Of a stretch of DNA of 47,524 nucleotides, positions 4-46,268 are shown piece after piece (the stretch's first letter is position 1; each line of letters starts with the position of its first letter). The notes under the pieces are model-generated. The model made no database searches and had not been told where the DNA came from. It was given only the letters and a program-made list of their open reading frames with translations. Location of the stretch: contig CAZJYT010000001.1 of the NCBI GenBank assembly GCA_964550325.1, positions 1 to 47,524 of the forward strand, in the 5' to 3' direction. The DNA is from an uncultured Candidatus Saccharibacteria bacterium. GTDB taxonomy: Bacteria; Patescibacteriota; Minisyncoccia; Minisyncoccales; CAZJYT01. The position numbers and the translations under genes were made by a program.

Positions 4-25
4 TGCTATTTATAAGTAAAGAGAT
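4..25 (+). promoter_or_regulatory. conserved leader / extended -10-like element (TGcTATTTA) upstream of the first + gene, cut by the window edge
   Basis: 19 nt TATTTATAAGTAAAGAGAT (7-25) are identical to 6564-6582 upstream of the Cas4-like gene. Both copies are preceded by TGn and followed by ATG within 0-2 nt. Confidence 0.3.
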
Positions 26-301
26 ATGAAAATAAAGAACAAAATAAGCAAAAGAAAAAAGCAACAGTTAAGAAAGTTATTTGTCTCTTTTTTTGTAAGA
101 GAATTAGGAATTCCTCAATCCCTACTCGCTTTTATTCTAAATGTTTCAAGACAAAGAATCTTCCAGATGGTTAGAAATCCAAGATTAGACTTTAAAACAG
201 CAGAAAGATACAAACTTTACGAACTAAAAGACCTGATAGATTTAGAAAGATTTAAGAAATTGATAAAAGAAATAGATCTTTTAAGAAAATCAGATTTATA
301 A
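26..301 (+). CDS. small basic protein with HTH-like segment (putative transcriptional regulator)
   Basis: 91-aa ORF. LGIPQSLLAFILNVSRQRIFQMV resembles a helix-turn-helix. First gene of the + block; its stop overlaps the next start (TAATG). Confidence 0.4.
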   Translation: MKIKNKISKRKKQQLRKLFVSFFVRELGIPQSLLAFILNVSRQRIFQMVRNPRLDFKTAERYKLYELKDLIDLERFKKLIKEIDLLRKSDL

Positions 302-726
302 TGGCTTCTGATAAATGTCCAAGATTTAATAATTGTAATGCTCCTTTATGTCCTTTAGATAAAGAGAGTTTAGAATTTGGAATTTGGTATCCTGATGAAG
401 AAATTTGTCAGAATAGGAACTTCTCAAAACTTCGTTGGATTAGAAATCAGAAGAAGATACTTAAAGTAAATGCTCCAAAAGACAGATACTTTAGTTTCAC
501 AATGCTTAAAAGAAAGTGTGTTATCGGAAAGAAGATGCAAGGATTAGACCCAGATGAGCCAGAAGGACCTCAACTAGAAAGATGGTTAAAACAGCATCCA
601 GAAAGAAAGCCCTTATCTGAAAAACAGAAACAAGTCATAGCAAAACTGAAGACCTCTTTAAAAACCCCAATCCGCCGAGGTTTTAAAGGTCAAAAACCCC
701 AATCTAACGATGTTTTACAGACCTAA
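301..726 (+). CDS. Cys-rich putative metal-binding protein
   Basis: 141-aa ORF with N-terminal CPRFNNCNAPLCPLD...EEIC cysteine cluster. The last ~60 nt of the ORF are formed by repeat copy A (665-749), so the C-terminus is uncertain. Confidence 0.5.
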   Translation: MASDKCPRFNNCNAPLCPLDKESLEFGIWYPDEEICQNRNFSKLRWIRNQKKILKVNAPKDRYFSFTMLKRKCVIGKKMQGLDPDEPEGPQLERWLKQHPERKPLSEKQKQVIAKLKTSLKTPIRRGFKGQKPQSNDVLQT

Positions 727-749
727 TATCCTTTAGAGGTATAAAACAT
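665..749 (+). repeat. 85-nt repeat, copy A (two CCAATC boxes 32 nt apart, then AGACCTAATATCCTTTAGAGGTATAAAACAT)
   Basis: Ungapped alignment to 7989-8073 gives 73/85 identical positions. Ends 1 nt before ATG 751 and supplies its GAGGT ribosome-binding site. Confidence 0.85.
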
Positions 750-750
750 T

Positions 751-945
751 ATGAAGGAAGAAAAAGTTATCAAAAATCCATTTAAAGACCTTAAAAACGA
801 ACTTCTTTCTCAATTTACCTTTTCAGACTTGAAAAATCCAGTAAAGAGGATAAAAATAAAAGAAACCTTACAGACTTTAGATGATTGTTCTACCAGATAT
901 CTTGATCTTTTAAGAAGATTAAAAAACCTAACAAGGTATTTCTAA
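751..945 (+). CDS. hypothetical protein (64 aa)
   Basis: ORF with GAGGT 9 nt upstream of ATG. No recognisable motif. Confidence 0.5.
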   Translation: MKEEKVIKNPFKDLKNELLSQFTFSDLKNPVKRIKIKETLQTLDDCSTRYLDLLRRLKNLTRYF

Positions 946-2243: not shown

Positions 2244-2536
2244 AAAAAGAAAAGCAAAAAGGATACAAATTAGAGCACTATCTGGAAACACTCTTTAGAA
2301 AGAAAAGAATTGCCTGTCAGAGATTAGGACAACCAGGACAACCAGATTTGTATTTCAAAGACTTGAAGATGACAGGAGAGTGTAAGAATAAAAAGAACCT
2401 AAAGACCATCTATGATATGAAAGGAAATAAGGATTTTCTCTTTCTAAAGTGGAGTTCAAGGAAAATCAGAAAGAAACCAATTTTAGTGGTAATGGAGTTA
2501 AAAACCTTTCTAAAAATCATAAATAAAAGGTCTTAA
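2240..2536 (+). CDS. PD-(D/E)XK nuclease, Holliday-junction-resolvase (Hjc)-like
   Basis: 98 aa. E12 ... GQPD(36-37) ... ECK(47-49) spacing fits the E / PD / (D/E)xK pattern of Hjc-type resolvases. Confidence 0.45.
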   Translation: MKKEKQKGYKLEHYLETLFRKKRIACQRLGQPGQPDLYFKDLKMTGECKNKKNLKTIYDMKGNKDFLFLKWSSRKIRKKPILVVMELKTFLKIINKRS

Positions 2537-2554
2537 GTGCAACATATTGCACAT
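2535..2554 (+). promoter_or_regulatory. conserved stem-loop element, copy 1 (AAGTGCAA-CATA-TTGCACAT)
   Basis: Matches the 20-nt consensus in 3' register with one base missing from the 5' arm (AA-GTGCAA vs AATGTGCAA). Starts at the stop codon of ORF 2240-2536 and is followed by AATTTTT. Lies 18 nt upstream of ATG 2572. Confidence 0.6.
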
Positions 2555-6540: not shown

Positions 6541-6582
6541 TTGATTTTCTTTTCTTTTTGTGTTATTTATAAGTAAAGAGAT
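6541..6582 (+). promoter_or_regulatory. putative sigma70-like promoter with extended -10 plus conserved leader (copy 2)
   Basis: TTGATT (6541-6546), 17-nt spacer ending in TGt, TATTTA (6564-6569). 6564-6582 is identical to 7-25. Confidence 0.35.
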
Positions 6583-7204
6583 GTTGAAGAAACTTATAAA
6601 ATTCTACTATGAGAATAGCCAAGAGTTTGAAAGACAGCCCCATCTTTATGTGACTGATATTGCCCGTTGTCCTCGTGCTGTCTATTTTTCCTTTAAAACT
6701 GATGAAAGGATTCCTTTTGATGATGTAATGTCCAGAGTCTTTGATAGAGGAAGTGAAACTCATAAAAACCTCCTTTCTGTTCTTTACGAATTAGGAGTTT
6801 TAGAGGATTCAGAAGTTAGAATTCCAGAAAACAACCTTGTCTCTGGAAGGGTAGATGGAATTTTAAAGATTGATAATGAGAGATATCTTTTAGAGATAAA
6901 GACAATTAAGGATTTTGGATTTCAGAAACTCATAGAACAGGGTCCTATTAAGGCACACATAGACCAAATTCAACTCTATTTATACTTCTTAAAACTTAAA
7001 AAAGGCTTCCTTCTTTATGAGAACAAAGACAATCAGATACTTAAAGAGTATTCAGTTTCTCTCTCTTTACCCTACGCAGAGAAACTTATCTTTAAACTCA
7101 AAAGGTTAAAGTTTCTAATAGATAATGATATTCTCCCTGAAAAGACAAAAGAAACCTGGCAATGTAAGAACTGTCCTTTCAGGGAGATTTGTAAAAAAGT
7201 ATGA
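6581..7204 (+). CDS. Cas4-like / RecB-family PD-(D/E)XK exonuclease with 4-Cys Fe-S cluster motif
   Basis: N-terminal Cys (DIARCPRAVYF), GRVDGIL...LLEIKT (D...ExK), QIQLYLYF (QxxxY), C-terminal CKNCPFREIC (Cx2Cx5C). Start moved from GTG 6560 to ATG 6581, which follows the conserved leader. Confidence 0.8.
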   Translation: MLKKLIKFYYENSQEFERQPHLYVTDIARCPRAVYFSFKTDERIPFDDVMSRVFDRGSETHKNLLSVLYELGVLEDSEVRIPENNLVSGRVDGILKIDNERYLLEIKTIKDFGFQKLIEQGPIKAHIDQIQLYLYFLKLKKGFLLYENKDNQILKEYSVSLSLPYAEKLIFKLKRLKFLIDNDILPEKTKETWQCKNCPFREICKKV

Positions 7205-7521
7205 AAGAACTCTTGGAACTTTTATTAAGATTAGAGGAAAAAGGCTTAAGTTCTCCTATTCTTAACTCTATCAAGGAGATTTTAGAACTGGAAGAAAAGA
7301 GAAAAGAAATTCATCTTAAAAGGCTTTTGATTTCTCTTTTTCTTATTTTTAATCCTAAATCGACTATCAAGGAAGCAAAAGAGAAAATAGAAAAGGTCTT
7401 TGATGAAATTTCTCTTAAAAAAGAAAACTATCTTGATTTATCTCTTTCAAAAGAAGAAATAAAAAAGATAATCAAAGAGTTGAAAAATGGAAAACCTGAA
7501 CAAACTAGCAAAGGCTTATAA
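7201..7521 (+). CDS. hypothetical protein (106 aa)
   Basis: ORF with ATGA overlap to the Cas4-like gene. No motif. Confidence 0.5.
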   Translation: MKELLELLLRLEEKGLSSPILNSIKEILELEEKRKEIHLKRLLISLFLIFNPKSTIKEAKEKIEKVFDEISLKKENYLDLSLSKEEIKKIIKELKNGKPEQTSKGL

Positions 7522-7954
7522 AGATAATCTGAAGAAGATGATAAAAGAACTCTATAGGAAGAAGATGGAATTAAAAGGAGAAAGAGGTAAGTTTACTGCC
7601 TTTAGAAAGGAATTTGCTAAAAAGTTTAATCTTTGTGATGAATGGTTAAGAAAGCATTTAGAGGATTATGAGTTTTTTGTTATCAAATTGAAGGTTCCAG
7701 AAGAAACCTTTTTCTCTATTGGACGCTTGAGATGGCATCTTATTAAACCCTATGCTACAGAGAAAAATCTTTCAAAACTTATTAAACTTATCACCACTCT
7801 TCCTTATCGCAAGGTAAGAAAACAGCTCCGAACCCTAAAACAAGAAGGTTGTGCTCATACTTTTGAACTTGTTAAGTTCTGCCCCAGATGTAAAAAGATT
7901 TTTAGGCTTTCTCCAGAAGAAGTAGAAAGAATTAGAAAAGGTTTTCCTCTTTAA
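7487..7954 (+). CDS. putative DNA-binding protein with C-terminal zinc ribbon (paralog of 1582-2073)
   Basis: 155 aa. LPYRKVRKQLRTLKQEGCAHTFELVKFCPRCKKIF aligns with the C-terminus of ORF 1582-2073. Last gene of the + block. Confidence 0.5.
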   Translation: MENLNKLAKAYKDNLKKMIKELYRKKMELKGERGKFTAFRKEFAKKFNLCDEWLRKHLEDYEFFVIKLKVPEETFFSIGRLRWHLIKPYATEKNLSKLIKLITTLPYRKVRKQLRTLKQEGCAHTFELVKFCPRCKKIFRLSPEEVERIRKGFPL

Positions 7955-7973
7955 TGTGCAACATATTGCACAT
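7954..7973 (+). promoter_or_regulatory. conserved stem-loop element, copy 2 (ATGTGCAA-CATA-TTGCACAT)
   Basis: Perfect 8-bp stem and 4-nt loop. Its first base is the last base of stop codon TAA 7952-7954. Sits at the convergent junction of the + and - blocks. Confidence 0.65.
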
Positions 7974-7988
7974 AGATACCTTTTTCAA

Positions 7989-8073
7989 CCCCAATCCGCC
8001 GAGGTTTTAGGCCTTCAAAACCCCAATCTAATGGGCTTTTTTAGACCTAATATCCTTTAGAGGTATAAAACAT
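7989..8073 (+). repeat. 85-nt repeat, copy B (orphan: no + gene follows; the ATG of copy A is ATC here)
   Basis: 73/85 identity to 665-749. Lies between convergent gene ends and points into the 3' end of minus-strand gene 8078-9961. Confidence 0.85.
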
Positions 8074-8077
8074 CATC

Positions 8078-9961
8078 TCAATCCATTTCCTGTTCAATTT
8101 CCATCTTCTTTGCCTCTTTTAGAGAAACAGGTTCCAGTTTCTTCTTTCCCAAAGCAATCTTCTTCATTAAACTTAAAGGAAAGCACTTTTTAGCCTTCCA
8201 GAAGTAAAAGAACAAGCCATAAACAGGTTTTCCTGCTTCTCTTTGCTTTTTAGTCATTTCATTCTTATTTAGTTTCCTTTGAACCAATCTATAGTAGTAT
8301 CTTCCATTTAGATGTTTTCCCAAAAAGGTAATGTCATAGAAATCCAGTTCCCTCCTATGAATAACACAAGGAGCAAAGTAATCTCCAGGTAAGGCAAGCA
8401 TAACTGCCATCTCATTTTTGGTTGGATTTCCTCTTTCTCCAGGTTTAGCCCAAAGTTTCTTCACCTTCATCCAATACAAAACATCTCTCCTTTCCCAAAT
8501 CCTTTCCCCTTGTGTTGCTTCAAAGTGTTTTAAAAGGAATTCTTTTAATTTTTGCCCTTTAGGATGAAGAACTTGATAACCTTTGACTGATTGTCCTGAA
8601 ATACAGTAAATTCCATTTCTTCTAACAATTATTAAACCAGTTGGGACTGTGACAGAATAGAGTTTTCCTTTATAGAGTTCAATACTCCAATGTTTAGGTC
8701 TGACTTTTGGATACAGCCCTTTCTTTTGGGCAAAAAATAAACGGTATATTAAAGAGCCTTTTCCTGAAATTCCAGAAGAGATAGTTACCGAGTAACCAGC
8801 CAAAATTCCAATTATTTGGAGTTGGTCTCTCAAAACTTTTGAAGAGGTGTAAATTGTAAAGCCGCTACTCTTTTTATTTGGAGTCCCATCTCCCATTCTG
8901 TATCCTTTTAAGAAACTTTGAAGACTCTTTCTATCGGCTTTGAATACATAATCAGGAATAACTTTCTTTCCTTTTCCTTTTAGTTTATATTTCTTAAATT
9001 CTAAAGCCAATTTTTTGTCTCTGATTACAAAAACTCTTACCTTGTCTTTGTTTTCATACTCTTTTAGATTTGAAAAATTTTGTTTCTTTAATAACTTTCT
9101 TGCATAATCAATCTTAGTTTTTTGAGATATCTGTAATCTGTAACCATCTCTAGAATTCGCGTACACACCTCCTTCCGCAAACCAAAAACCGAGAAATTCA
9201 AACCAATCTGGATTTTCTTTTTTCCCTTTCCATTTAATCTCTCTCTTAAAATGTCCAACTTTTCCAAAGGCTTCAGCCGCTGAAAGAATTTTAAACCTTT
9301 TTTGATTTGAGGGATTCCAACGCCTTTTTCCGTCTTTAGAATAGACCCAATATCTTGGAGAAAAATACAAACGATGTGAAGGATTTACTAACAAATCTAC
9401 GTGTCTGTGCTTTATCCTAATAAGTTCTCCATTGTTTTCATAAACAATAATATCAAGAGGTTTTACATAGGAAAGAAATCCATCCTTAGAAACCTGAGCA
9501 ACTTTATCTTCTTTTGAAAGATCTTTAAAATATTTCCAACCTTTTTCAGTCAGTATTTCAGTTTTTTCATCAAAACAACCCTGGACCTTTCTATCTGGTC
9601 TCCCTTTCCATGGTGCAGTAAAGAAGGTCAACCCAAACCATGTAGTTGCTCCTTTAGGAAGAATTCTTAAATCATAGTGATACTTTCCCTCCATTTCCTT
9701 TGCTGGATCTTTACCTTCTTTTATGATTTTACACATTTCCTCATAAACCTCATCTACATTCTTAAATGTTCCTACTGGAAACCATCCATGTAGTTGTAGA
9801 GTGTATCTTCCAGGTATAAAGTCTATAAATTCAGCATGGAAAGGATCTTTTAGAGCAATCTTTAAAGCCTCCTGCAAAAGAGCAGACTTGGAAGGAATAT
9901 CAGTTCCTTCATAGACCTTGTATCCCTTCTTTGTAGGAACAAGTTTAAGTCTTTTTGCCAT
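8078..9961 (-). CDS. intein-containing protein; spliced extein ~298 aa of uncertain function (HYDLR motif faintly LigD-phosphoesterase-like)
   Basis: 627-aa ORF. Extein residues 1-128 and 458-627 flank a 329-aa Hint+LAGLIDADG insert. Extein has YTLQLHGW...KYHYDLRILPKG. Confidence 0.6.
   Translation of the reverse strand: MAKRLKLVPTKKGYKVYEGTDIPSKSALLQEALKIALKDPFHAEFIDFIPGRYTLQLHGWFPVGTFKNVDEVYEEMCKIIKEGKDPAKEMEGKYHYDLRILPKGATTWFGLTFFTAPWKGRPDRKVQGCFDEKTEILTEKGWKYFKDLSKEDKVAQVSKDGFLSYVKPLDIIVYENNGELIRIKHRHVDLLVNPSHRLYFSPRYWVYSKDGKRRWNPSNQKRFKILSAAEAFGKVGHFKREIKWKGKKENPDWFEFLGFWFAEGGVYANSRDGYRLQISQKTKIDYARKLLKKQNFSNLKEYENKDKVRVFVIRDKKLALEFKKYKLKGKGKKVIPDYVFKADRKSLQSFLKGYRMGDGTPNKKSSGFTIYTSSKVLRDQLQIIGILAGYSVTISSGISGKGSLIYRLFFAQKKGLYPKVRPKHWSIELYKGKLYSVTVPTGLIIVRRNGIYCISGQSVKGYQVLHPKGQKLKEFLLKHFEATQGERIWERRDVLYWMKVKKLWAKPGERGNPTKNEMAVMLALPGDYFAPCVIHRRELDFYDITFLGKHLNGRYYYRLVQRKLNKNEMTKKQREAGKPVYGLFFYFWKAKKCFPLSLMKKIALGKKKLEPVSLKEAKKMEIEQEMD
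8591..9577 (-). mobile_element. intein with LAGLIDADG homing-endonuclease domain (aa 129-457)
   Basis: Block A CFDEKTEILT (Cys1 codon verified at 9575-9577), block B LLVNPSHRLY, LAGLIDADG motifs FLGFWFAEGG and FLKGYRMGDG, block F/G LIIVRRNGIYCISGQ followed by Ser+1 (codons verified at 8588-8593). Confidence 0.8.
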
Positions 9962-9962
9962 A

Positions 9963-12545
9963 TCACACCTCTATAAGAACTACATTAATAAATCCCGTAT
10001 CAGGAAGATAGGTAAGTCTTGGATAGTTAGAGCGAAACATTACGCTATGAACATCAGTTCCTAAATAGAACTCTCTTTCATTTGTTGAAATCTCAATTCC
10101 CAAAACAGGAACAAGGTCTTCTGCACTTCTATCCTTATAAGCAGAATTGCTTACTTTAGCAGAAACCTTATTCCCAGTTTCAGAGGTAATAAGACTACAG
10201 AGTTGTTCAAGAGTTCTATCTTCAGTTGAGATTGTCTTTTCAGTCCCATTCATGTTTATCTTAATACAGAGATTTGTCCTATCTATGGTTACCTTACACT
10301 TTCCACTTCCAAAATAGGCAAGTTTTATCCCTGGAAGGTTTATGTTTCTGAATCCTACAAAGTTCAAAGCCTTTTGAGAAGAAGCAGCATTAAAAAGATC
10401 TTGCCAGATTTCTCTTAATTCCTTTCCTTCGTATCTAAAGGAAGTAGATTGAGTTAAACTTTCAGATGTTTCTGAATCATAAACACTTCCATCTCTCTTT
10501 TCAGCAATAGTCCCTAAAATAGTAAAGTGAAACTCTTTCTTTCCAGTTTTAGAAGACTCTAAAATGTATGTCCAAGTCAAATCACTTACCAATGGAGTAT
10601 TACTTCCATCTTCGCTCTCTAAAACTATTCCTATCTGAAAACTTGTATCTTTTACTGGATTTTCTAAATCAAACCTCGTATCTTCTCCAGGAGAGAATTC
10701 TTTTTCATATAAAGGAGTAAGTTCTTTAGAAGGTCTATAATATCTCAGTTTTATCTTTGTTCCTTGAGGAAAATCTTCTTGAAAACTCTCAATAGATTTA
10801 ACAAGTTTATTCACCTTTCTCATTCCAGCATCAAAACGAGAAGTAATAAGATAGCCACTTGAGATATATTTGTTTTCATTTCTCTTATAGAACTGTCCAT
10901 TGGTATCAACTACATAAAGATTATCCAAATAGGCAAAGATGTAACTGGGGGTAAAGGAGAGTTTTTGAACCAAAGACCATTGCATAGGAAACTTCTTATA
11001 ATCCATATTGCATCTTGCCAAATACCAGTCTGTTTCATCTTTTACCAAAGCAAAGATATCAGTTCCTCTGGTAGCAATCCCCTTACAAGAGGTAAACTTA
11101 AAGAAGGGATTAAGTTTATGGATGTTAGTAGGATAGATGTTGTATCCACTTACAAAGAAAATTCCCAGTTTCTCAACAGAGAAAATGAGAAAAGAAGAAA
11201 ATCTATCATTTTTAAAGTTATTGATTGAGGTCTCGCTACTGAAATCAGCAATCTTAACTCCTAATCCTCCACTTAAAAGAGTAAAAAGAGAACGAGAAGT
11301 AGCAAAGAATATTTGATTATAGGTCTTTGCTGCTCTTATGATCTGTCCCTCTGATTCAGGTAAGGCATAAAGGAATCCTGTTTCAGGCAAAAAGTTTTCT
11401 CCATCATCAGTTCTCTTTAGTCCTTTATCAAAGAATCCATACCCTAAATCTCCAGCATCAACCTCTAAAAAAGAAAGTCCTGTGCTTTCTCCTTTAACAA
11501 TAACGGAATCAACATACATTGTTCCTGTTCCTGAACTATTGGTATTTAAAATCCTTATCTCCTTTATAGCAGAAAAGATGATAGAGGTTATTCCTCCTCC
11601 TGTTATTTCTACATCATCTATCCAAACCTGGAACTTATGGCTTGTTCCATCCCAACTTACCTTAATCTTATACCAGGTATCAGCAGTATAGGTCTTATCT
11701 GTAGGAAAGTTTTTATAACTTCCATCATAATACTTAAAATGCCCATCATTAGCAGCAACAATAAAATAAAGAGAAACATTATCAGAAGACAGAGGAATAA
11801 AGGGATAATGCCATTTGTTTGTTTCTCCAAATCTAAAGTATCCTTCAAAACTTCCTTTATTAGACAAAGCAATCTTCTTTTTAAGATAATAAGGAGCTCC
11901 TGAAGCCTTTGCTGCATATTGCCCCTCATAAACAACAGAACCCTGAACTTGCCAGCCTTCCTTTGCATCCCATTTGTTTAGATTTCCATCTTCAAAGTCA
12001 TCCTCAAATTCAATTTCCAGAAAGGTTATATCAGTTTCTGTATAGTTTCCCTCTTTTTTAGTTCTCTTTAGAAGTTTTGAAGTTCCTCTACAGGCATATT
12101 GGTTTCCTCTCATCTCATAGAAGTCAGTAATTCCTGTAAATCCTGTTCCTAAAGAGGTAAGAGAAGAACCATCCCAAAGATAGATATCTCCATCTTCAGT
12201 AGCAATATGAATGCCATCAGAGAGTTGTTTTGCTACTCTAACAGAACTTCCTACTGAAATTCCTTCCAGTTTCTCTAAAGGTCTTTCCAGTTTCAGTTCT
12301 CTGGGAATGGTAATATCCAATCCCACTCCAAAGGCATATTCAGAAGGCCTTTCTAAATAGAGTTGTCCAAATCCATCAGAGAATTCTTGTTGTCCATTTG
12401 TTTGCCAGAAGTCTAAATCAGAATAGGCCAGTCTTCCAGTAGCAAATCTGGTCCCAAACAAAGGTGCTGGGGTCTCTCTATAACTGTTCTTATCTATCAT
12501 ATACCCCTTATAATCCAAAAGAATGTCGTATCTTTGATTATCCAT
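9963..12545 (-). CDS. large virion (tail/nozzle/receptor-binding candidate) protein with inserted LamG/ConA-like lectin domain
   Basis: 860 aa. aa ~178-352 (11490-12014): FEDDFEDGNLNKWD...YAAKASG...WYKIKVSWDG...FQVWIDD...MYVDSVIV is typical of Laminin_G_3 jelly rolls. Flanks look beta-rich. Confidence 0.5.
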   Translation of the reverse strand: MDNQRYDILLDYKGYMIDKNSYRETPAPLFGTRFATGRLAYSDLDFWQTNGQQEFSDGFGQLYLERPSEYAFGVGLDITIPRELKLERPLEKLEGISVGSSVRVAKQLSDGIHIATEDGDIYLWDGSSLTSLGTGFTGITDFYEMRGNQYACRGTSKLLKRTKKEGNYTETDITFLEIEFEDDFEDGNLNKWDAKEGWQVQGSVVYEGQYAAKASGAPYYLKKKIALSNKGSFEGYFRFGETNKWHYPFIPLSSDNVSLYFIVAANDGHFKYYDGSYKNFPTDKTYTADTWYKIKVSWDGTSHKFQVWIDDVEITGGGITSIIFSAIKEIRILNTNSSGTGTMYVDSVIVKGESTGLSFLEVDAGDLGYGFFDKGLKRTDDGENFLPETGFLYALPESEGQIIRAAKTYNQIFFATSRSLFTLLSGGLGVKIADFSSETSINNFKNDRFSSFLIFSVEKLGIFFVSGYNIYPTNIHKLNPFFKFTSCKGIATRGTDIFALVKDETDWYLARCNMDYKKFPMQWSLVQKLSFTPSYIFAYLDNLYVVDTNGQFYKRNENKYISSGYLITSRFDAGMRKVNKLVKSIESFQEDFPQGTKIKLRYYRPSKELTPLYEKEFSPGEDTRFDLENPVKDTSFQIGIVLESEDGSNTPLVSDLTWTYILESSKTGKKEFHFTILGTIAEKRDGSVYDSETSESLTQSTSFRYEGKELREIWQDLFNAASSQKALNFVGFRNINLPGIKLAYFGSGKCKVTIDRTNLCIKINMNGTEKTISTEDRTLEQLCSLITSETGNKVSAKVSNSAYKDRSAEDLVPVLGIEISTNEREFYLGTDVHSVMFRSNYPRLTYLPDTGFINVVLIEV

Positions 12546-15500
12546 ATTTCTTCTTTATTTCTTCGATTATCTTTTTCATCTTGGTTTTTCTCCAAATAGC
12601 AAATTTAGGTAACCATTTCTTCCATTCTTCTAATGTCCCCCCAGAAGCAAGGTAGATTTCTTTAGCCAAAGCCAAAGTATCTGGTTTTCCAATAAGAACT
12701 GTGGTTTGAGTCTTTGAAGGAACCTTAAGGTATTTTGCTTTCTGGCTTTTAGGTCTTGGAGCATACCACCCTATAGAACCATCAGGTCTGATAGTAATGT
12801 GTTGAACATTTACCCTTATAACATCTCCTGGTTTTGCTTTTACCTCTTCTTGAGCGTATGTCTGTCCAATATAGGTTCCATCTCCTAAAACACAATGGAA
12901 GATAGGTAATCCTGTTTTTGTTCTCTCAACTCCTATGACTTTAGCATCAATGTCATAGAGTTTCTTAAATTTGAAAGATAGATGGGTAGCCCAGTAAGAA
13001 GCCTCTGTAGATCTGATAAAGGCTCCTTCATTAGACTGCATTTTCTTTATAGCATCAGGAATCTGATTTCTCTTTACTACCACAGAAGGAGTTTTAAAGA
13101 CATATTTGGATTTTAGGTTCTTTAAGAGTTTGCCTAAAAGGAAACTTCTATCACTGAAGGGTTTATTTGATAAGTCTTCTCCATCTAAATAGAGTAAATC
13201 CCAAACAGGAAATCTTACGCTTTCCAATTCTTCTTTAGTGGGTTTCTTTTTAGAATGGAGATAACCTACAAGGTTTTGTCTTGGTATCTTTTCAGCAATG
13301 ATTTCTCCCACTATTAGAAAGTCGTGTCTTACCTTTGATAAGGTTTTCACTATCGGCTCTATTCTTGAGTTAGAAATCTTTCCTCCTGTTTCTGAAAAGA
13401 ATCTAATGTCTTTTCCTTTCTTCCAGCAGTAAGCAAGCATCCCATCCCACTTGGGACTAACATCATAGGTTCCTTCAGGAACAATCTCTTTTAGTCTCTC
13501 AATACTAAAGACCTCATTGGAAGACAGAGCCTTTTTTTCAGGTTTATGAGGAGGAGGAACCACAAAAGGCTTTATTTTTATCTTTTTTAAATCTCCTTCT
13601 TGAATTGAAGCCTCTCCTGTAACTTTTATTAGTTCTTCTTTAAGTTCCTCAATCAATTTCTTATTTTTATCTTCTCCTTTTTGGAAGGTTTGAACTCCTT
13701 TTTTAAGTTTGTATTCAATAGATTTTGGGAATGGATAGAAGGTAAAGAGATAGTAATAGAGAGTTCTTTGAGGAAATCCTTTCCACCATCTCTTTGCCTC
13801 TTTTCTTGAAACCCTGTGCCATTTCTGTGTCTTATCAAAGTCTAAATTCCTGAATATAGCCTCTATCTTAATTAAACCATAAACCTTATCTCCTGCTAAT
13901 CTGAATATCTTTCCCACAATGTCAAACTTTTTGCTTTTTACAATCAAAAGTTTATCTCCTTTTAGAATCATTTTAGCGTGAGGTTCTACAAGGTAAAGAA
14001 TAGGAAGGTTTTCATAAACAGATTTGTAGGGAATAGTTTTTCTGTATTTTAAAGTAAGACGAATAAGATTTTGTATCTCTTTCAGTTTTTCTTCTTTAGA
14101 AGAAGCCAAGGTTTCCTCTTCTTTCTTCTTCTCTTCTACTAGTTTTCTTATTCTTACCAAATCAGAGTAATCTGCCAAAGCAAAGGAAACCCTTACCACA
14201 TCCTTTGGTAAAACTCTTACTTCTATTTTCCCTTCAGGAGTTTTAACCAGTTCGTAAATATCAGTTTGAGATTTAACTCTCTTTTCAATTTGAGAAATAA
14301 TGTCTTCTCCTTTTATTTCCTGTGCATATTTTTCTTTAAGTTCCAATTCTTGTCTTAACATCTCCTCTCTTTCTTTCTCTATTTCTCTTATCAAGGTATT
14401 TACTCTCTCCTCTCCAAGTTCTCTTAAGGCTCTCCTTTTAGAAAGCAACCCTCCTTTGTATTTTCTTAAGACCAATGCTGATAGCTTCTCTGGATCTTCA
14501 TTACTAAATCCAATAAACTTCTCTTTTGGTCTAAAGATTGCCTTATTAAAGTATTCTGAAATGGTTTTGCCATCAAAGGCAAGTTTATTCTCTTTTAGGA
14601 ACTTATTTAGGTAATACTCATCTATTTCTTCAAAGAATCTCAATAAAAGATTTGCTTTTGACTTTATTCTCCTTAAGGCTCCAGAGAAAACCAAACTCAT
14701 TGCTCCTTTTTCTCTTACAGAGCCTCCTTTTCCTAAAAAGTAATCTAAAATCCCTATATGCTTTTGAATTTCAAGGTCTTGATCTTGAATAAGTTTTAGT
14801 TCTTCTACTGGAATTTCTGGAGGTTTAATAACATCTATATTCCCATCTCTACTCTTTTCCAAAACAATGTTTCGAAAGTTCTCTCTTAAGGCAAAGTTTA
14901 AAAGATCCTGATTTATCCTTGCTTCTTTATCTATGGTTATTATTCCAGAACACATTCTCTTAAAGTGGTTGCTTAAAAACTCTTTAAATTCCTGATTCTC
15001 TTTAAGTGTAGGATAGATTTTCAAAACAAGAGGAATAGGATAAAATGTTTCCAATGTCTCTCTATCAGCACAAACCCTAAATGGGTAATCTCCATCAAAA
15101 GGAAACTCTTTTACAATCTCATTTAGTCCTTTAGGAATCCAGTATTTCTTTCTATCATCCTTGGAATAAACAACAAAAACACAAATCTCATCATCAGGCT
15201 TGTAATAACTTAAAATTCTGTTTTGTTTGTCTTTTTCTAAAAGAGAAGCGAATTTAGAAGCAGTAAGATAGGTTTTTCTTACTACAAAAGGCTGTTTTTC
15301 TAAAAAAGGTTCTTTTGGATGTCCTACAAAGAATTCAGAGGGTTTTATTATCTCATATTTGTCTTTATTAAGGTAAGCAACAACTAATCCCTCAGTAAGG
15401 AGATTTATAGTCAGGTTCTTTATAAGAGAGTCTTTTTTTGATTTATGATGTATTTCCTTTAAGCGGAGTTCTAAAAACTCGGCAAAAGAGAGATAGGGTT

Positions 15501-15771
15501 CTTGTTCTGGTTCTGTTTCTACATCTATTACCGATTTGCTATTGTCAATTTCTTCAGCAAAGTTAAGAATCAGATAGTTAATTGGATTTTGCTTGAATAT
15601 CTGATCTATAGAGAGTTTAGAATCAGGTTCATAGACACTTGCTGGGCTCTCAAAAAAGTTTGCAAGGTCTGGGTTTCCAAAAAGAAAAGTAAATACAGCC
15701 TGCTTTATGGTCTTATTATAGGCTAAACTTACAGACTCATTTTTTATTACCTCTGAGACTATTTTTTCCAT
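12538..15771 (-). CDS. multidomain protein: N-terminal ~560-aa domain (portal candidate by size and position only) + ASCH-like domain + ATP-dependent DNA ligase
   Basis: 1077 aa. Ligase motifs are listed in the domain feature. ASCH-like aa ~585-700 (LYLVEPHAKMILKGDKLLIVKSKKF...YGLIKIEAIF...YYYLFTFYPF). 3-nt gap to the giant ORF and 8-nt overlap with the next ORF. Confidence 0.7.
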   Translation of the reverse strand: MEKIVSEVIKNESVSLAYNKTIKQAVFTFLFGNPDLANFFESPASVYEPDSKLSIDQIFKQNPINYLILNFAEEIDNSKSVIDVETEPEQEPYLSFAEFLELRLKEIHHKSKKDSLIKNLTINLLTEGLVVAYLNKDKYEIIKPSEFFVGHPKEPFLEKQPFVVRKTYLTASKFASLLEKDKQNRILSYYKPDDEICVFVVYSKDDRKKYWIPKGLNEIVKEFPFDGDYPFRVCADRETLETFYPIPLVLKIYPTLKENQEFKEFLSNHFKRMCSGIITIDKEARINQDLLNFALRENFRNIVLEKSRDGNIDVIKPPEIPVEELKLIQDQDLEIQKHIGILDYFLGKGGSVREKGAMSLVFSGALRRIKSKANLLLRFFEEIDEYYLNKFLKENKLAFDGKTISEYFNKAIFRPKEKFIGFSNEDPEKLSALVLRKYKGGLLSKRRALRELGEERVNTLIREIEKEREEMLRQELELKEKYAQEIKGEDIISQIEKRVKSQTDIYELVKTPEGKIEVRVLPKDVVRVSFALADYSDLVRIRKLVEEKKKEEETLASSKEEKLKEIQNLIRLTLKYRKTIPYKSVYENLPILYLVEPHAKMILKGDKLLIVKSKKFDIVGKIFRLAGDKVYGLIKIEAIFRNLDFDKTQKWHRVSRKEAKRWWKGFPQRTLYYYLFTFYPFPKSIEYKLKKGVQTFQKGEDKNKKLIEELKEELIKVTGEASIQEGDLKKIKIKPFVVPPPHKPEKKALSSNEVFSIERLKEIVPEGTYDVSPKWDGMLAYCWKKGKDIRFFSETGGKISNSRIEPIVKTLSKVRHDFLIVGEIIAEKIPRQNLVGYLHSKKKPTKEELESVRFPVWDLLYLDGEDLSNKPFSDRSFLLGKLLKNLKSKYVFKTPSVVVKRNQIPDAIKKMQSNEGAFIRSTEASYWATHLSFKFKKLYDIDAKVIGVERTKTGLPIFHCVLGDGTYIGQTYAQEEVKAKPGDVIRVNVQHITIRPDGSIGWYAPRPKSQKAKYLKVPSKTQTTVLIGKPDTLALAKEIYLASGGTLEEWKKWLPKFAIWRKTKMKKIIEEIKKKYG
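12742..13569 (-). other. ATP-dependent DNA ligase catalytic + OB domains (aa ~735-1010 of ORF 12538-15771)
   Basis: Motif I SPKWDG (Lys774), III FLIVGEII, IIIa FPVWDLLYLDGEDL, IV EGAFIRS, V LSFKFKK, then an OB-like region (DAKVIGVER...GDVIRVNVQHIT...GWYAPRP). Confidence 0.85.
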
Positions 15772-15774: not shown

Positions 15775-18700
15775 TTAGTAGAAAGAGCCAATATAACCTA
15801 TGAGAGGCTTCTTAAAGCTTCTTCCTTCTAAAAATGCCAATTCTTTGATTGCTCTGTCAAGTTCCTTTTTAAGTAAAGGAAGTCTTTCCAAGTCTTTCTC
15901 TTTAAGTCTATTTATAGCAATCATCCTTTGTTCAAAGTATCTTTCCCAATCAGCCTTATTCCAGTTTCCTTTATCTCTCCATATCTTGTATTTCTTAAAG
16001 ATTCTTCTCACTCTCTCTTCAACATCACTGGGTAAATTGTATCTTCCAAATTTACTTATCTTCTCTAAAGCCCATCTTAAATCTGGTTGGAATCTCATCT
16101 CTATTCTTTCTCCTTCTTCAATAAATCTTCTTAAGGGATATTTAACAAGATAAGACTTTTCAGGATGAACAGTAAGATACTTAGACTTTGCCCAATCAGG
16201 AAGACTTCTGAAATAGAGAACCCCAAACAAAGGATTTTCCTTTGCTAATCTTATCCAGTTTTCCATTAGCATCCTGTATATCTTTTCCTTAAACCAGTAT
16301 CCTTCATCTGTTTCTGGAACCTTCCAGAACTCCTTAAAGAGTTTCTTACTTACCAATCTACTTAACAACTCACAAGGCTCCTTCTGAAGTATTTCTCTTA
16401 CCTCATTTACCCTCTTTTCCCAAGGTTTGAACCTTCTTCTGTCAAAGAAATAACTTCTTGGTAAAGCCCAAATCTCCCAGAAGTCTAAAAGTTCTGGATG
16501 CTTGTTAAGAAATTCTTCTCTCTCTCCTAAAGTCTCCTTTCTAAAGTATTCCTCCTGTAGGTCAATGAGTTTTGAGAAAAGAGGATGCTGCTTCTTTCTA
16601 AAGTATTCCTTTAGTTCTGGGTTTTCTTTTAGATAGTTCTTTCTTTCTTCTAAAGTTCCTAAAGAGAAGTAGTGTTCTATCATTCTTTCTAATGTGGTTT
16701 TTACTCCTTCCTCTTTCTTGAGATATCTAAAGATTTCTATATTCTCCTCTCTAAATCTTTCTCTCATTAAATAGAACCTTCTTAAACTCTCTAAACTCTT
16801 TCTATCAGGTTTAGATTTTACATCAGGAGCCTCTAAAAGAAGTTTCTGATACTGATAATACTTCTCATAAGCCTCTCTTCTCTTTGGTTCCAGATCTTCC
16901 TTAAAGGATTCTCTTAATTCTGGATGTTCTTCAAGGAAAAGGAACCTTTTAAGATTGTCTTCAAATGTTTCTTTGGGCAAACTGAAATACTCCATTCTAT
17001 CCAAATAGAGTTGCTTCTTCTCTGGATGTTTTTCAAAGAATCTCTCTCTGTATTTCTTATTGTCTTTTCTCCAGAAGTAAGCCTGCCATAAGTCCCAATT
17101 CTCTATCCTTGCCAATGCAGAAAGTCTCTTCCAGAATAGCAGATAGTTGTATGTATCTGGATCCTTCTTTTTAAGTTCCTCTCTTAAAGGCTTAAATTCA
17201 GGCTTCCAGAAGAGTTTAAATCTCTCATCTATCTTTCCTTCTTTGAAGAGTTTATAGAATTCCTCGTAATACTGAATCTTCAATCCTCTTAAGTATGGAT
17301 CTTTCTTTAGATAGGTTTTCTTAAACATAGGAGAAGTTTTAAGGAAAGCCTCTATAAATTCAATAAAGTTTTCCTTTTTTAGAAGTTTATTCCAAGTCTT
17401 ATAGTATTCTTCCTTTTCAGGATGAGTTTTGAAATACATTTCTCTTTCCTTCTTATAGGAAGAATCATAGAAAACTCTCTTCCAGTTTTTCCAATCTCCT
17501 TTGAAAGCAAAGTTAATCCATCTTCCAAGCCATTCATAATATCTTTTCTTTTCTGGATGTCTCTTATAGTATCTCTCTCTGTATTTCTTATTCCTCTCTG
17601 CAAAGAACTCATTTCTCCATCCTTCCCAGTTCTCTTTTTCTGCTAAAAGGGATAATCTTCTCCAAAAGAGTAGATAATTATACTCCTCTGGCTTTCTTTT
17701 CTTCAAATCTTCTCTCAATTCTTTAAATCTATCCTCCCAAAAGAGATCAAAGGTTTCATCTACCTTTCCTTGATCAAGGAGTTCTATAAACCTCTTATAA
17801 TATTCAATCCTTAGACTTCTAATAGCAGGATCTTTCTTAAGATAGAGTTTTCTAAACCATCCTTCAGTTGCTAAGAAGGCTCTAACATAGTCTTCAAACT
17901 CCTTTGTCTTAATGATTTTAATCAATTCAGCCCACTTTTCATAGTATTTTTTCTTCTGTGGATAGTGCGAAAAGTAGGTTTCTCTCTGTTTTTTGTATTT
18001 AGAATCCCAGAATACTTTCTTCCATCCTTCCCAGTCTTCTTTAGAAGCAAAACTCACCCATTTCTGTATCCATTCGTAATATCTCTTCTTTTCTGGATGC
18101 CTCTTAAAGTAAGTTTCTCTCTGTTTGTTGTATTTTCCAGACCAGAAGATATTTCTCCAGGCATTCCATTCATCTCTTGAAGCCTCTCTCATCCAGTTCA
18201 TTACCCAATCCAAATAAGCAAAGGATTCTGGCTGGTCTTTAGCAAAAGCCTCTTTTGCCTTCTTATTCCTTGGATTAAACCACCATCTTAAGGCAAAATT
18301 GGTAAAGATTCCTCTCTTTCGGTTTTCATTATCCTTCTTAAATCTCCTTAAGAGTTCTCTCTTAAAGGGATAATAGAGTCTCTTTAAGGGATGATTAAAG
18401 AAGTAATAACTGATAAACCAAGATGGCATCTGATAGAACCTCTCATAGTAGTCATATCCTCCAGTTCTTTCCATCTCTCTTATCAATTTTTCCCAGAGTT
18501 CTAGGTATTTCTTAATCCTTCTCTCAAATTCCTTATTATAGGCTGCTTTTCCTCTTTCCCATCTTGCCTTTTCTTCTTTTGTAAGAACCTGGTCTAAATA
18601 GCGGAGAGCCTTTTCATAGATTCTTCTCTTTTCTTCTTTTGGAAGTAAAGCAAAATCAGAGGGGAAGAAACTAAAGAATCCTGCTAACTTTATTGAGTAA

Positions 18701-31633: not shown

Positions 31634-31645
31634 CTTTCAGAAGAT

Positions 31646-31706
31646 AGGTCTCTAAATTACCATTAGATTGGCCTTTTTGACCCAAAAAACATCGTTAGAT
31701 TGGGTT
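31646..31706 (-). repeat. CCAATC-box repeat, copy C (minus orientation)
   Basis: Read on the minus strand: CCCAATCTAACGATGTTTT (19 nt identical to 698-716), and 32 nt later GCCAATCTAATGG...TTTAGAGACCT. Ends 12 nt before ATG 31633. Confidence 0.7.
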
Positions 31707-31707
31707 T

Positions 31708-32120: not shown

Positions 32121-32140
32121 ATGTGCAATATGTTGCACAT
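32121..32140 (-). promoter_or_regulatory. conserved stem-loop element, copy 3 (sense orientation on the minus strand)
   Basis: + strand reads ATGTGCAATATGTTGCACAT, so the minus-strand transcript reads ATGTGCAACATATTGCACAT. Abuts stop codon TAA of ORF 32140-32565, and a T-run follows 8 nt later. Confidence 0.65.
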
Positions 32141-32565
32141 TAGATCTCACAAGACCAAAAAGGTTCTGTTTTTTTAAGTTTCAGATTCTCTTTTAGGAAG
32201 TTAAACATCTCTTCTTCTTTTACATTATCAGGAATAAAGCAAAAGTCTTCTCTCTTTATGATATAGGCAAAACTAAAAGAACTTTCAGCAATAGTTTTCC
32301 CATTAGGAAGTAAGCCATCTGAATAAACAGAACAAGAAGGATTTTCAAAACTAAAAAACCTTACCTTTGGAGAACAAATAAAAAGAAACTCTTCTCTTAA
32401 AAGAGAAGCAATAAGAAAAGCAGTATTAAAAGCAGAAGGAAGATTCTTAACACTTATACCAGAAAGAGGATTTAAATCTGAGTAATTGATAACAATCCTC
32501 TTTGCTTCTTTCTGTCTTGGAGGAAGATTTTCATCTTTTAGAAGCACGAAGTAACAAGAAGCCAT
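32140..32565 (-). CDS. hypothetical protein (141 aa), first gene after the capsid terminator
   Basis: ORF. No motif. Confidence 0.5.
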   Translation of the reverse strand: MASCYFVLLKDENLPPRQKEAKRIVINYSDLNPLSGISVKNLPSAFNTAFLIASLLREEFLFICSPKVRFFSFENPSCSVYSDGLLPNGKTIAESSFSFAYIIKREDFCFIPDNVKEEEMFNFLKENLKLKKTEPFWSCEI

Positions 32566-32589: not shown

Positions 32590-32622
32590 TTAAAAAAGAA
32601 GGAGCCCTATTTCAAGGGCTCC
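32590..32622 (-). terminator. rho-independent terminator downstream of the major capsid gene
   Basis: On the minus strand: GGAGCCC-ttgaaata-GGGCTCC followed directly by TTCTTTTTT, 30 nt after the capsid stop codon. Confidence 0.75.
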
Positions 32623-32652
32623 TTTATGAGAGAGGAATCCTATCGGTCAGAA

Positions 32653-46248: not shown

Positions 46249-46268
46249 ATGTGCAATATGTTGCACAT
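46249..46268 (-). promoter_or_regulatory. conserved stem-loop element, copy 4 (sense orientation on the minus strand)
   Basis: + strand reads ATGTGCAATATGTTGCACAT. Lies 6 nt after stop TAG of ORF 46275-46544 and 36 nt before the amidase ATG. Followed by a pyrimidine-rich leader. Confidence 0.65.

What the first reader, a model, noticed from the sequence alone, without database searches (positions are those of the whole stretch)
7954..7973. Identical 20-nt stem-loop (ATGTGCAA-CATA-TTGCACAT) present four times, always in the sense orientation of local transcription
Copies lie at 2535-2554 (+), 7954-7973 (+), 32121-32140 (-) and 46249-46268 (-).

Seen in sequence:
- Three copies share all 20 nt; the fourth (2535-2554) lacks one base of the 5' arm.
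- The asymmetric loop reads CATA on the coding strand in every case, although the two pairs lie on opposite DNA strands.
- Three copies begin exactly at a stop codon (TAA(T)GTGCAAC) and the fourth begins 6 nt after one.
- T-rich sequence follows each copy, though at variable distance.

Inference: ordinary terminators do not need sequence identity, and an 8-bp AT-rich stem is weak. The conservation therefore suggests a specific protein or RNase recognition site. Candidates are a terminator or antiterminator target, an mRNA processing or stability element, or an operator for a dimeric regulator such as the HTH protein at 26-301. A more speculative alternative is a hairpin-type promoter like those used by N4 virion RNA polymerase. 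Copy 4 precedes a lysis gene, which argues against an early-promoter role.
Basis: partly seen in the sequence, partly recalled or inferred. Interest (0 to 1): 0.65.

Follow-up and report, generated by a model that had tools for sequence, protein, structure and literature searches.

The report
Repeated 20-bp palindrome at phage gene boundaries
An uncultured hot-vent phage carries one exact 18-20 bp palindrome after the stop codon of several genes and beside one early promoter, most likely a docking site for a single regulatory protein that punctuates transcription; it is real and unusual in its exactness, but of a broadly familiar kind.

Summary
ATGTGCAACATATTGCACAT occurs at 7954-7973(+), 32121-32140(-) and 46249-46268(-). 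A 19/20 copy lies at 2535-2554(+). Shuffles give none.

The window is about 47.5 kb of a 50+ kb podovirus-like phage from hydrothermal metagenomes. The same 18-nt core marks four more sites on small contigs from the same samples, probably the phage's early region. Flanks are unrelated at all eight sites.

- Six sites abut the upstream stop codon, with CATA on the coding strand.
- One site is inverted and sits 2 nt from the -35 box of a sigma-70-type promoter.
- One site overlaps a start codon on the other strand.
- In a diverged relative the promoter-adjacent copy survives with one change (C9 to T), which makes the core a perfect palindrome.

So the arms are constrained, not the loop asymmetry. 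The hairpin is weak: -7.9 kcal/mol at 37 C and about -2 at the predicted 65-83 C. The same genome uses strong canonical terminators.

Best reading (about 0.4): a site for a dimeric sequence-specific DNA-binding protein, acting as early-promoter operator and intergenic roadblock, like a stoperator. Main rival (about 0.3): an RNA hairpin that attenuates, stabilises or is processed. An N4-type hairpin promoter is unlikely. No binder was identified.

The parts
2535..2554 (+). Copy 1, AAGTGCAACATATTGCACAT (19/20). The stop TAA (2534-2536) of ORF 2240-2536 overlaps positions 1-2. The next ATG is at 2572, 17 nt after the motif.
   Evidence: Flagged as terminator-like by the lenient scan. Unchanged in 3 strain variants.
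7954..7973 (+). Copy 2, exact 20-mer. The stop TAA of ORF 7487-7954 overlaps position 1. It lies at the convergent junction with ORF 8078-9961(-), and the 97-nt 'CCCCAATC' repeat copy B (7980-8076) follows 6 nt later.
   Evidence: Flanks can add an outer helix, giving -14.7 kcal/mol, z=-4.5. Not flagged as terminator-like.
32121..32140 (-). Copy 3, exact 20-mer on the minus strand. The stop TAA of ORF 32140-32565(-) overlaps position 1. The next ATG (32115) is 5 nt after the motif, and the whole intergenic gap is 24 nt.
   Evidence: Unchanged in 8 strain variants. Flagged by the lenient terminator scan.
46249..46268 (-). Copy 4, exact 20-mer on the minus strand. It starts 6 nt after the stop TAG of ORF 46275-46544(-) and ends 35 nt before the ATG (46213) of the Amidase_3 endolysin gene. 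AGGAGG upstream and CCUCCU downstream can form an outer helix.
   Evidence: In variant L029, sequence identity is 100% through the motif and 24 nt beyond it, then drops to about 92%.

Best explanation
The element is an 18-20 bp near-perfect palindrome, with half-site TGTGCAA(Y)A. I propose it is read as double-stranded DNA by one sequence-specific protein, probably a dimer and probably phage-encoded.

The phage places the site in two kinds of position. At one early promoter at least, it abuts the -35 box and would act as an operator. At six or more gene boundaries it sits directly after a stop codon, ahead of the leader or promoter of the next gene. There the bound protein would act as a roadblock or insulator that limits read-through into the next block: DNA-metabolism genes, the block headed by the giant virion protein, the endolysin, and the convergent junction. 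Functionally this is the operator-plus-stoperator logic of mycobacteriophage L5, but with a palindromic, dimer-type site.

**Shown:** the copies, their exactness, their placement, their retention in variants, and the weakness of the hairpin.

For: 1. **Invariance.** All 18 core positions are identical at eight sites with unrelated flanks: four in the window and X1, X2, Y, Z on contigs from the same samples. No compensatory or wobble variant of the arms was seen. Base-specific reading of both arms fits a duplex-DNA dimer site better than an RNA helix.
2. **Symmetry.** 18 of 20 positions are dyad-symmetric. The only internal asymmetry (C9/A12) is lost in the diverged relative L115, which has GTGTGCAATATATTGCACAT, a perfect 18-bp palindrome. 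The flanking DNA there is only 74.5% identical; 19 or more matches of 20 has p=0.02.
3. **Promoter link.** At site Y the palindrome is inverted relative to the local genes. It ends 2 nt from TTGACA-N18-TAAAAT. The block 'palindrome + TC + TTGAYA' is an island of conservation among three variants. At X1 a TTGACA promoter-like site follows 19 nt later.
4. **Site Z.** The motif overlaps the SD-preceded start codon of a divergent gene. It is unchanged between variants that are 86% identical.
5. **Weak hairpin.** It folds at -7.9 kcal/mol at 37 C, -2.2 at 70 C and -0.65 at 80 C. The proteome composition (IVYWREL 0.43-0.45) predicts growth at 65-83 C. Canonical terminators of the same genome keep about -8.6 kcal/mol at 70 C.
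6. **Not a host-wide repeat.** The 18-mer gives only single, chance-level hits in 185,579 species genomes and in IMG/VR.
7. **Precedent.** L5-type repressors bind more than twenty sites, both in promoters and in short intergenic spaces, and stop elongation (PMC9283540).
Against: - Six of eight sites are flush with the upstream stop codon (Fisher p=0.008). Seven of eight read CATA on the local sense strand (p=0.07). That polarity is what a transcript-level 3'-end element would show. I explain it by compaction, with the downstream leader or promoter having to stay intact, but that is an inference.
- A lenient scan calls three of the four window copies terminator-like.
- The four window copies have no recognisable promoter next to them, so an operator role is seen only outside the window.
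- No candidate binder was identified. ORF 26-301 and ORF 7487-7954 have only weak regulator-like hits, and no repressor or integrase was found.
- A symmetric dimer site gives no reason for an orientation bias.
- The out-of-window sites were found with an exact-match search, so degenerate copies elsewhere would have been missed.
Confidence: 0.4

Rival explanations
1. The element acts as an RNA hairpin at the 3' end of the upstream cistron. It could be a leaky attenuator or terminator, a barrier to 3' exonucleases, or a processing site. A phage or host RNA-binding protein or RNase would account for the sequence identity, as an antiterminator target (nut or RAT-like) or as an RNase III-type site like those of T7.
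For: - Six of eight sites start at or within 7 nt of the upstream stop codon, whatever the length of the intergenic gap (Fisher p=0.008).
- Seven of eight have the same strand orientation relative to local transcription.
- Copy 2 lies at a convergent junction.
- X1 lies between a gene end and the next promoter.
- The lenient terminator scan flags copies 1, 3 and 4.
- At copies 2 and 4 and at site Y, unrelated flanks can add an outer helix, giving -14 to -16 kcal/mol with z about -4.5 for copies 2 and 4. This resembles the two-tier T7 RNase III sites (recalled from memory).
Against: - Site Y is inverted and has no upstream gene on its strand.
- Site Z sits at a gene start.
- Eight sites show no stem covariation at all.
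- The loop base C9 changes in a relative while the arms do not.
- The hairpin is marginal at the predicted growth temperature, and the genome uses strong canonical terminators where it needs them.
- T content downstream is not above the intergenic background.
- A ribosome terminating on an overlapping stop codon would melt the stem (inference).
- Rfam has no match.
Confidence: 0.3
2. The identity is maintained mainly because the element serves as a portable boundary for recombination. This would resemble the PeSL terminator-promoter cassettes of T4-type phages, with short identical sequences between genes acting as exchange points for module shuffling. Any transcriptional role would be secondary.
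For: - In variant L029 the sequence is identical to the window from 46226 to 46999. It is about 8% diverged from 45565 to 46225, so a mosaic breakpoint lies 24 nt from copy 4.
- At X1 and Y the stem-loop lies next to a sigma-70-type early promoter, like a PeSL (PMC4122927).
- The X locus shows gene-content indels between strains.
- The 'CCCCAATC' repeat copies appear to be homogenised between loci in some strains (L017).
Against: - Only one breakpoint lies near a copy.
- SNP profiles around copies 1, 2 and 3 show no change of identity at the motif.
- The L073/L112 deletion ends 33 nt from X2, not at it.
- The L024/L026 indel has no motif at its edges.
- 18-20 bp is short for homologous exchange.
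- This reading does not explain why the site is a palindrome.
Confidence: 0.1
3. The element is a promoter for a phage-encoded RNA polymerase, either as duplex DNA (T7-like) or as an extruded hairpin (N4-like). The enzyme would possibly be hidden in the 5120-aa protein.
For: - One exact sequence repeated upstream of gene blocks is how phage-polymerase promoters look.
- The giant ORF 15775-31137(-) is almost entirely unannotated and begins with a peptidoglycan-binding domain, as ejected virion proteins often do.
- Most genes lack Shine-Dalgarno sequences.
Against: - Copy 2 and site Y have no downstream gene in the motif's orientation.
- Placement tracks the upstream stop codon. Distances to the next ATG are 5, 5, 17, 35, about 108 and about 650 nt.
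- No polymerase similarity was found in Pfam, PHROGs or PDB sequences.
- Host-type promoters exist in the window: TTGACA-18-TAGCAT at 36900-36871(-), and the TTGATT/TATTTA pair.
- The geometry is an 8-bp stem with a 4-nt loop, against a 5-7 bp stem with a 3-nt loop in N4 (from memory).
Confidence: 0.05

Closest known systems
Operators and stoperators of cluster A mycobacteriophages (L5 gp71 type; PMC9283540, PMC6550527)
   Same: One short sequence is repeated across the genome. It occurs both at a promoter and in short intergenic spaces, often against stop codons. Orientation is biased with transcription. The proposed effect is a block of initiation and of elongation.
   Different: The L5 sites are asymmetric 13-mers bound by a monomer, number more than 20, and belong to a temperate phage with an immunity repressor. 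Here the site is an 18-20 bp palindrome with about 8 known copies. No repressor or integrase was found, and nothing has been tested.
PeSL composite terminator-promoter cassettes of T4-type phages (PMC2839356, PMC4122927)
   Same: A conserved stem-loop lies between genes. At X1 and Y it is next to a sigma-70-type early promoter. Variable accessory genes surround it, and one mosaic junction lies close to a copy.
   Different: The window copies have no promoter part. The conserved unit is only 18-20 bp and exact. Support for recombination rests on a single junction.
Rho-independent terminators
   Same: A stem-loop directly after a gene, with some T-rich sequence downstream. A lenient scan accepts 3 of 4 copies.
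   Different: The stem is A+T-rich and weak. The T tract is not adjacent and not enriched. The sequence is identical at all sites. One inverted copy lies beside a promoter. True G+C-rich terminators are present in the same genome, for example 32599-32624(-).
Lambda-type nut sites (boxB hairpins) and RAT antiterminator targets
   Same: Near-identical short hairpins in the sense orientation of differently oriented operons, recognised by one factor.
   Different: nut sites lie early in transcripts, downstream of promoters, and carry a boxA. Here the sites follow genes, no second conserved box flanks them, and the stem sequence rather than the loop is what is conserved.
N4 virion RNA polymerase hairpin promoters
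   Same: A short inverted repeat with a conserved sequence, in a podovirus that has a giant virion-type protein.
   Different: Stem and loop sizes differ. Copies are not confined to an early region. Two copies lack downstream genes. No polymerase was detected.

Membership tests
Rho-independent terminator | Stable, usually G+C-rich stem-loop | tested here: not met
   The stem has 8 bp with 3 G-C pairs. It folds at -7.9 kcal/mol at 37 C and -2.2 at 70 C. The terminator after the capsid gene gives -17.9 and -8.6.
Rho-independent terminator | U tract directly after the stem | tested here: inconclusive
   The lenient scan accepts copies 1, 3 and 4 but not copy 2. T content after the motif averages 0.47, against 0.36 +/- 0.18 for other intergenic 15-mers.
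Rho-independent terminator | Lies at the 3' end of a transcription unit in the sense orientation | tested here: inconclusive
   True for six of eight sites. Site Y is inverted beside a promoter, and site Z overlaps a start codon.
L5-type operator/stoperator system | One short sequence repeated in promoters and in short intergenic spaces | tested here: met
   Eight sites were found. Site Y lies 2 nt from a -35 box, X1 lies 19 nt from one, and six sites are in intergenic gaps of 22-128 nt.
L5-type operator/stoperator system | Asymmetric site bound by a monomeric repressor, with orientation tied to transcription | tested here: not met
   The site is a near-perfect palindrome and is perfect in L115. 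Orientation is 7 of 8, p=0.07.
L5-type operator/stoperator system | Cognate repressor gene in a temperate phage | tested here: inconclusive
   No repressor or integrase was found in the window, only weak regulator-like hits. The genome is incomplete.
L5-type operator/stoperator system | Protein binding that halts transcription | not testable with these tools
   This needs EMSA and in vitro or in vivo transcription.
PeSL cassettes (T4-type phages) | Composite of a stem-loop and an early sigma-70 promoter | tested here: inconclusive
   Present at X1 and Y. Absent at the four window copies.
PeSL cassettes (T4-type phages) | Located at indel or replacement junctions between close relatives | tested here: inconclusive
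   One junction lies 24 nt from copy 4. There is none at copies 1-3, and other indels are not bounded by the motif.
N4-type hairpin promoter | Virion-packaged RNA polymerase gene | tested here: inconclusive
   The 5120-aa ORF matches only a peptidoglycan-binding domain and endolysin families at its N-terminal end. No polymerase hit was found in Pfam, PHROGs or PDB sequences. Its fold was not examined.
N4-type hairpin promoter | Hairpin upstream of early genes, each copy with a downstream gene | tested here: not met
   Copies lie in all modules. Copy 2 and site Y have no downstream gene in the motif's orientation.
Lambda nut / boxA-boxB | A second conserved box next to the hairpin, and a position early in the transcript | tested here: not met
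   Flanks share nothing beyond the 20-mer. The sites follow genes.
Host repetitive palindromes (REP-like, uptake-sequence pairs) | Many copies in a cellular genome | tested here: not met
   There were 14 single hits in 185,579 species genomes, at chance level. In the source metagenomes only phage-like contigs carry the motif. The host itself may not be in the collection.
Any Rfam RNA family | Match at the gathering score | tested here: not met
   No matches in the whole window, and no tRNA or tmRNA.

The most novel reading that the evidence does not exclude
The palindromes are extruded-hairpin or duplex promoters read by an RNA polymerase domain hidden in the 5120-aa virion-type protein. That would be a new, N4-like but genome-wide transcription scheme in a thermophilic podovirus. 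My evidence argues against this reading but does not exclude it, because the giant protein's fold was not examined and no transcript data exist.
Probability: 0.04. Interest if true: 0.8.

Novelty: new variant of a known kind. Interest (0 to 1): 0.4.

Why it matters
If one protein reads this palindrome both at an early promoter and at gene boundaries, the phage controls the timing of its gene blocks with a single site. That would be a dimer-type counterpart of the mycobacteriophage stoperator, in a lytic-looking thermophilic phage of an unsampled lineage. An exact 18-bp site and its binder would also make a compact, possibly heat-stable, transcription insulator. If instead it is only a weak RNA hairpin, it is an ordinary attenuator with unusually uniform copies. 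In both cases the motif is a handy marker for joining fragmented contigs of this phage lineage. It already links about 8 kb of unassigned contigs to this lineage.

Tried and rejected
- **Host-genome repeat.** The 18-mer scan of GTDB genomes gave 14 single hits in unrelated taxa. One Pacebacteria hit lies inside a TatD-like gene. Rejected.
- **Relatives in IMG/VR.** The motif gave 9 chance hits, and its C9T version gave 14. TerL and capsid searches gave one 23% hit and nothing.
- **Capsid homologues at 39-44% identity.** These lie on short contigs that carry ordinary terminators and no motif.
- **A RadC-linked podophage contig (L116).** It has no comparable palindrome.
- **Micro-ORF 'MCNILHI...' starting at the motif's ATG.** Copy 1 and X2 have no ATG, and the peptides share nothing after residue 7. 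Rejected.
- **T-rich tail as a terminator mark.** It is not above the intergenic background.
- **Strain variation inside the motif.** None was seen in 19 variant contigs. Only about one change was expected, so this is uninformative.
- **Resemblances recalled from memory and not pursued.**
  - TGT-N12-ACA (P2 Ogr sites): the position relative to promoters does not fit.
  - Two inverted 9-mers, each 8/9 to the DnaA box TTWTNCACA.
  - LacI/GalR-like TGNAA...TTNCA with a non-CG centre.
  - The IHF core CAA-N4-TTG.
  - LexA boxes: one paper was read and it holds nothing similar.
  - These are leads only and carry a large look-elsewhere effect.
- **Rfam and tRNA scans** were negative.
- **PDB sequence searches** of ORF 26-301, ORF 7487-7954 and the giant ORF gave nothing significant.

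Full report
**1. The observation**

A search for ATGTGCAACATATTGCACAT allowing 3 mismatches finds exactly four places:
- 7954-7973(+), exact
- 32121-32140(-), exact
- 46249-46268(-), exact
- 2535-2554(+), AAGTGCAACATATTGCACAT, one substitution

Shuffled sequence gives none. TAA overlaps motif positions 1-2 at copy 1 and position 1 at copies 2 and 3. TAG ends 6 nt before copy 4. The loop reads CATA on the coding strand in all four copies, which by itself is p=0.125. The bare hairpin folds at -7.9 kcal/mol.

**2. What the window is**

The window is about 47.5 kb of a phage.
- It encodes an SU10-like capsid protein (32653-33720, -), a GpA-type large terminase (39414-41111, +), a beta-helix tail protein and an Amidase_3 endolysin (45053-46213, -).
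- It also encodes glycosyltransferases, a methyltransferase, a Cas4-like nuclease, a 1077-aa protein with a DNA-ligase domain and a 5120-aa ORF.
- Identical or 96-99.8% identical contigs occur in several hydrothermal metagenomes. One is a 50,076-bp ENA contig, of which the window is positions 2297-49820. The genome is not closed.
- Most genes lack a Shine-Dalgarno sequence.
- Amino-acid composition (IVYWREL 0.43-0.45) predicts growth at roughly 65-83 C. That relation was calibrated on cellular proteomes, so treat it with caution here.
- Host-type promoters are present. One is TTGACA-18-TAGCAT at 36900-36871(-), in the divergent gap. Another is a TTGATT/TATTTA pair with an identical 19-nt leader before ATG 26 and ATG 6581.
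- A strong canonical terminator follows the capsid gene: 32599-32624(-), a 10-bp G+C-rich stem followed by a T run.

**3. More copies elsewhere**

The 18-nt core shared by all four copies was scanned in three collections.
- **GTDB species genomes:** 14 single hits in unrelated taxa, about the chance number.
- **IMG/VR:** 9 single hits.
- **JGI metagenomes:** 64 loci. The ones from the window's own samples include contigs with no nucleotide or protein similarity to the window.

These contigs define four more sites.
- **X1** follows the stop codon of a gene with a LigD-phosphoesterase domain. A TTGACA...TATAT promoter-like sequence follows 19 nt later.
- **X2** has the stop TAG overlapping motif positions 1-3, and the next ATG is 5 nt after the motif. 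This is the same layout as window copy 3: CACAT, then five pyrimidines, then ATG.
- **Y** lies on the strand opposite to all local genes. It ends 2 nt before TTGACA-N18-TAAAAT.
- **Z** overlaps, on the other strand, the start codon of a 221-aa ORF preceded by AAGGAGG. About 450 nt of low-complexity non-coding DNA follows it.

An ENA contig from the same assembly as the 50-kb phage contig joins Z to the RadC gene upstream of Y, so Z and Y lie on one molecule.

Several observations suggest X, Y and Z are the unsampled early region of this phage or of a close relative, not host DNA.
- The Y locus carries a copy of the window's own 'CCCCAATC' repeat, 81% identical to 31707-31618.
- The sequence after Z resembles the start of repeat copy B.
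- A RadC homologue is the first early gene beside SU10-type portal and capsid genes in another phage contig.

This assignment is an inference. One gene of the X locus, an MBL-fold hydrolase, has 51-59% homologues in Patescibacteria chromosomes.

**4. Conservation**

- No copy varies in 19 strain-variant contigs, but only about one change was expected.
- The Z copy is unchanged between variants that are 86% identical (p=0.05).
- The most informative case is contig L115. Its RadC is 90% identical and the DNA around Y is 74.5% identical. The palindrome is kept as GTGTGCAATATATTGCACAT (p=0.02 for 19 or more matches of 20).
- Its one change, C9 to T, removes the only internal asymmetry and makes the 18-bp core a perfect palindrome.
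- The block 'palindrome + TC + TTGAYA' stands out as an island of identity among three variants.

So the arms and the link to the -35 box are under constraint.

**5. Placement**

The window has only 14 intergenic gaps of 15 nt or more, and the motif fills four of them. Where an upstream gene exists on the same strand (six sites), the motif is pressed against its stop codon whether the gap is 22 or 128 nt (Fisher p=0.008). Whatever belongs to the next gene comes after it, be it a leader, a promoter or the 'CCCCAATC' repeat. Distances to the next ATG vary widely: 5, 5, 17, 35, about 108 and about 650 nt. The T content after the motif is not higher than in other intergenic sequence. Pyrimidine-rich sequence directly before ATG is visible upstream of several other genes in the listing; I did not test whether it is enriched.

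**6. Weighing the mechanisms**

*An ordinary intrinsic terminator* does not fit well.
- The stem is weak, about -2 kcal/mol at 70 C, against -8.6 for the genome's true terminators.
- The T tract is neither adjacent nor enriched.
- Nothing in termination requires eight identical copies.

*A promoter for a phage polymerase* does not fit either.
- Copy 2 and site Y have no gene to serve.
- Placement follows the upstream gene, not the downstream one.
- Host-type promoters exist in the window.
- No polymerase similarity was found in the giant ORF.

*Two readings remain.*

A transcript-level hairpin that needs a specific factor would explain the flush-with-stop placement and the 7-of-8 sense orientation. 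The factor could be an attenuator or antiterminator protein, or a processing enzyme.

A duplex-DNA site for a dimeric protein explains several other things:
- the invariance of every arm base, with no covariation
- the near-perfect dyad symmetry, which becomes perfect in a relative
- the inverted copy locked to a -35 box
- the copy over a divergent start codon
- the irrelevance of hairpin stability at high temperature

This reading can account for the stop-codon placement as the only position that leaves the next gene's upstream signals intact in a compact genome.

I rank the DNA-site reading first (about 0.4) and the RNA reading second (about 0.3). A recombination-boundary role of the PeSL kind is suggested by one mosaic breakpoint 24 nt from copy 4. 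Other junctions do not support it, so I give it about 0.1.

**7. Comparison with known systems**

Functionally the closest is the operator/stoperator system of cluster A mycobacteriophages. There one repressor binds more than twenty sites, in promoters and in short intergenic spaces, and stops both initiation and elongation (PMC9283540). This element is not a member of that family. Its site is a palindrome rather than an asymmetric 13-mer, and no repressor or integrase was found.

The PeSL terminator-promoter cassettes of T4-type phages resemble the X1 and Y arrangement (PMC4122927). Lambda nut sites and N4 promoters fail defining features; the membership table gives the details. Rfam has no match.

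**8. Verdict**

The element is real, sequence-constrained and specific to this phage lineage. It is probably a protein-read punctuation mark of transcription. The exactness of the copies and their dual placement are unusual. The general category, repeated intergenic regulatory sites in phages, is known. No binder was identified and no transcript data exist, so the mechanism remains inferred.

Noticed in passing
window 656-752(+), 7980-8076(+), 31645-31707(-); also L049:951-1035: A second sense-oriented intergenic repeat family of 60-97 nt, 71-84% identical. Each copy holds two direct copies of an 11-nt box, CCAATCTAAYG, about 32 nt apart, and runs into the start of the next gene. At the Y locus it follows a strong terminator, and two inverted copies of the box lie in the small ORF behind it. 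It could be a phage-specific promoter or a second operator type. Copy B (after motif copy 2) has lost the ATG.
   Followed up: partly
window 7-28 and 6564-6585: An identical 19-nt stretch, TATTTATAAGTAAAGAGAT, lies directly before ATG 26 and ATG 6581. In both cases TTGATT precedes it about 17 nt upstream of TATTTA. This looks like a pair of host-type promoters with a shared leader.
   Followed up: partly
window 15775-31137(-): A 5120-aa ORF. Its only recognisable part is an N-terminal peptidoglycan-binding or endolysin-like stretch. Internal repeats lie around 17000-18200 and 29500-30600. Its function is unknown; it may be an ejected virion protein.
   Followed up: partly
window 8078-9961(-): A 627-aa protein with weak LAGLIDADG_3 and PHROG hits. 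Those PHROG families are annotated thymidylate synthase, PhoH-like and ribonucleotide reductase. My guess is that an intein with a homing endonuclease causes these hits.
   Followed up: no
whole window, gene starts: About 40 of 46 genes have no Shine-Dalgarno sequence. A few have a strong one, namely ATG 46544, ATG 9961 and ATG 751. Many starts are ATGA overlaps.
   Followed up: no
whole window; L073, L108, L110: Proteome composition predicts a thermophilic host (65-83 C). An MBL-fold gene on a motif-bearing contig has 51-59% homologues in Patescibacteria (CPR) chromosomes. The host is unknown, and a CPR or other vent thermophile host is possible.
   Followed up: partly
window 46219-46249 vs 46509-46539: A 31-nt, 84% complementary pair brackets the whole 89-aa ORF. 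The downstream arm is the CU-rich leader of the endolysin gene, right after motif copy 4. It may be a long-range RNA pairing, or chance in low-complexity sequence.
   Followed up: no
window 45565-46225 vs 46226-46999 (compared with L029): A sharp mosaic boundary in a strain variant. The endolysin side is about 8% diverged and the upstream side is identical.
   Followed up: yes
L051:3500-3900; L114:90-520; L091:1-800: Several hundred nt of purine and pyrimidine low-complexity non-coding DNA next to site Z. It might be an origin, a terminus or a regulatory region.
   Followed up: no
L024:246-2150 vs L026:224-437: Strain-level replacement of about 1.9 kb of small early genes just left of the window.
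   Followed up: no
L073:2780-2813: Two overlapping 9-10 bp perfect palindromes, ACCTCTGACA-AAA-TGTCAGAGGT, repeated in tandem. This may be another operator-like array.
   Followed up: no
window 12538-15771(-): A 1077-aa protein whose only recognised part is an ATP-dependent DNA ligase domain (residues 768-929). No DNA polymerase, primase or portal was recognised anywhere in the window.
   Followed up: no
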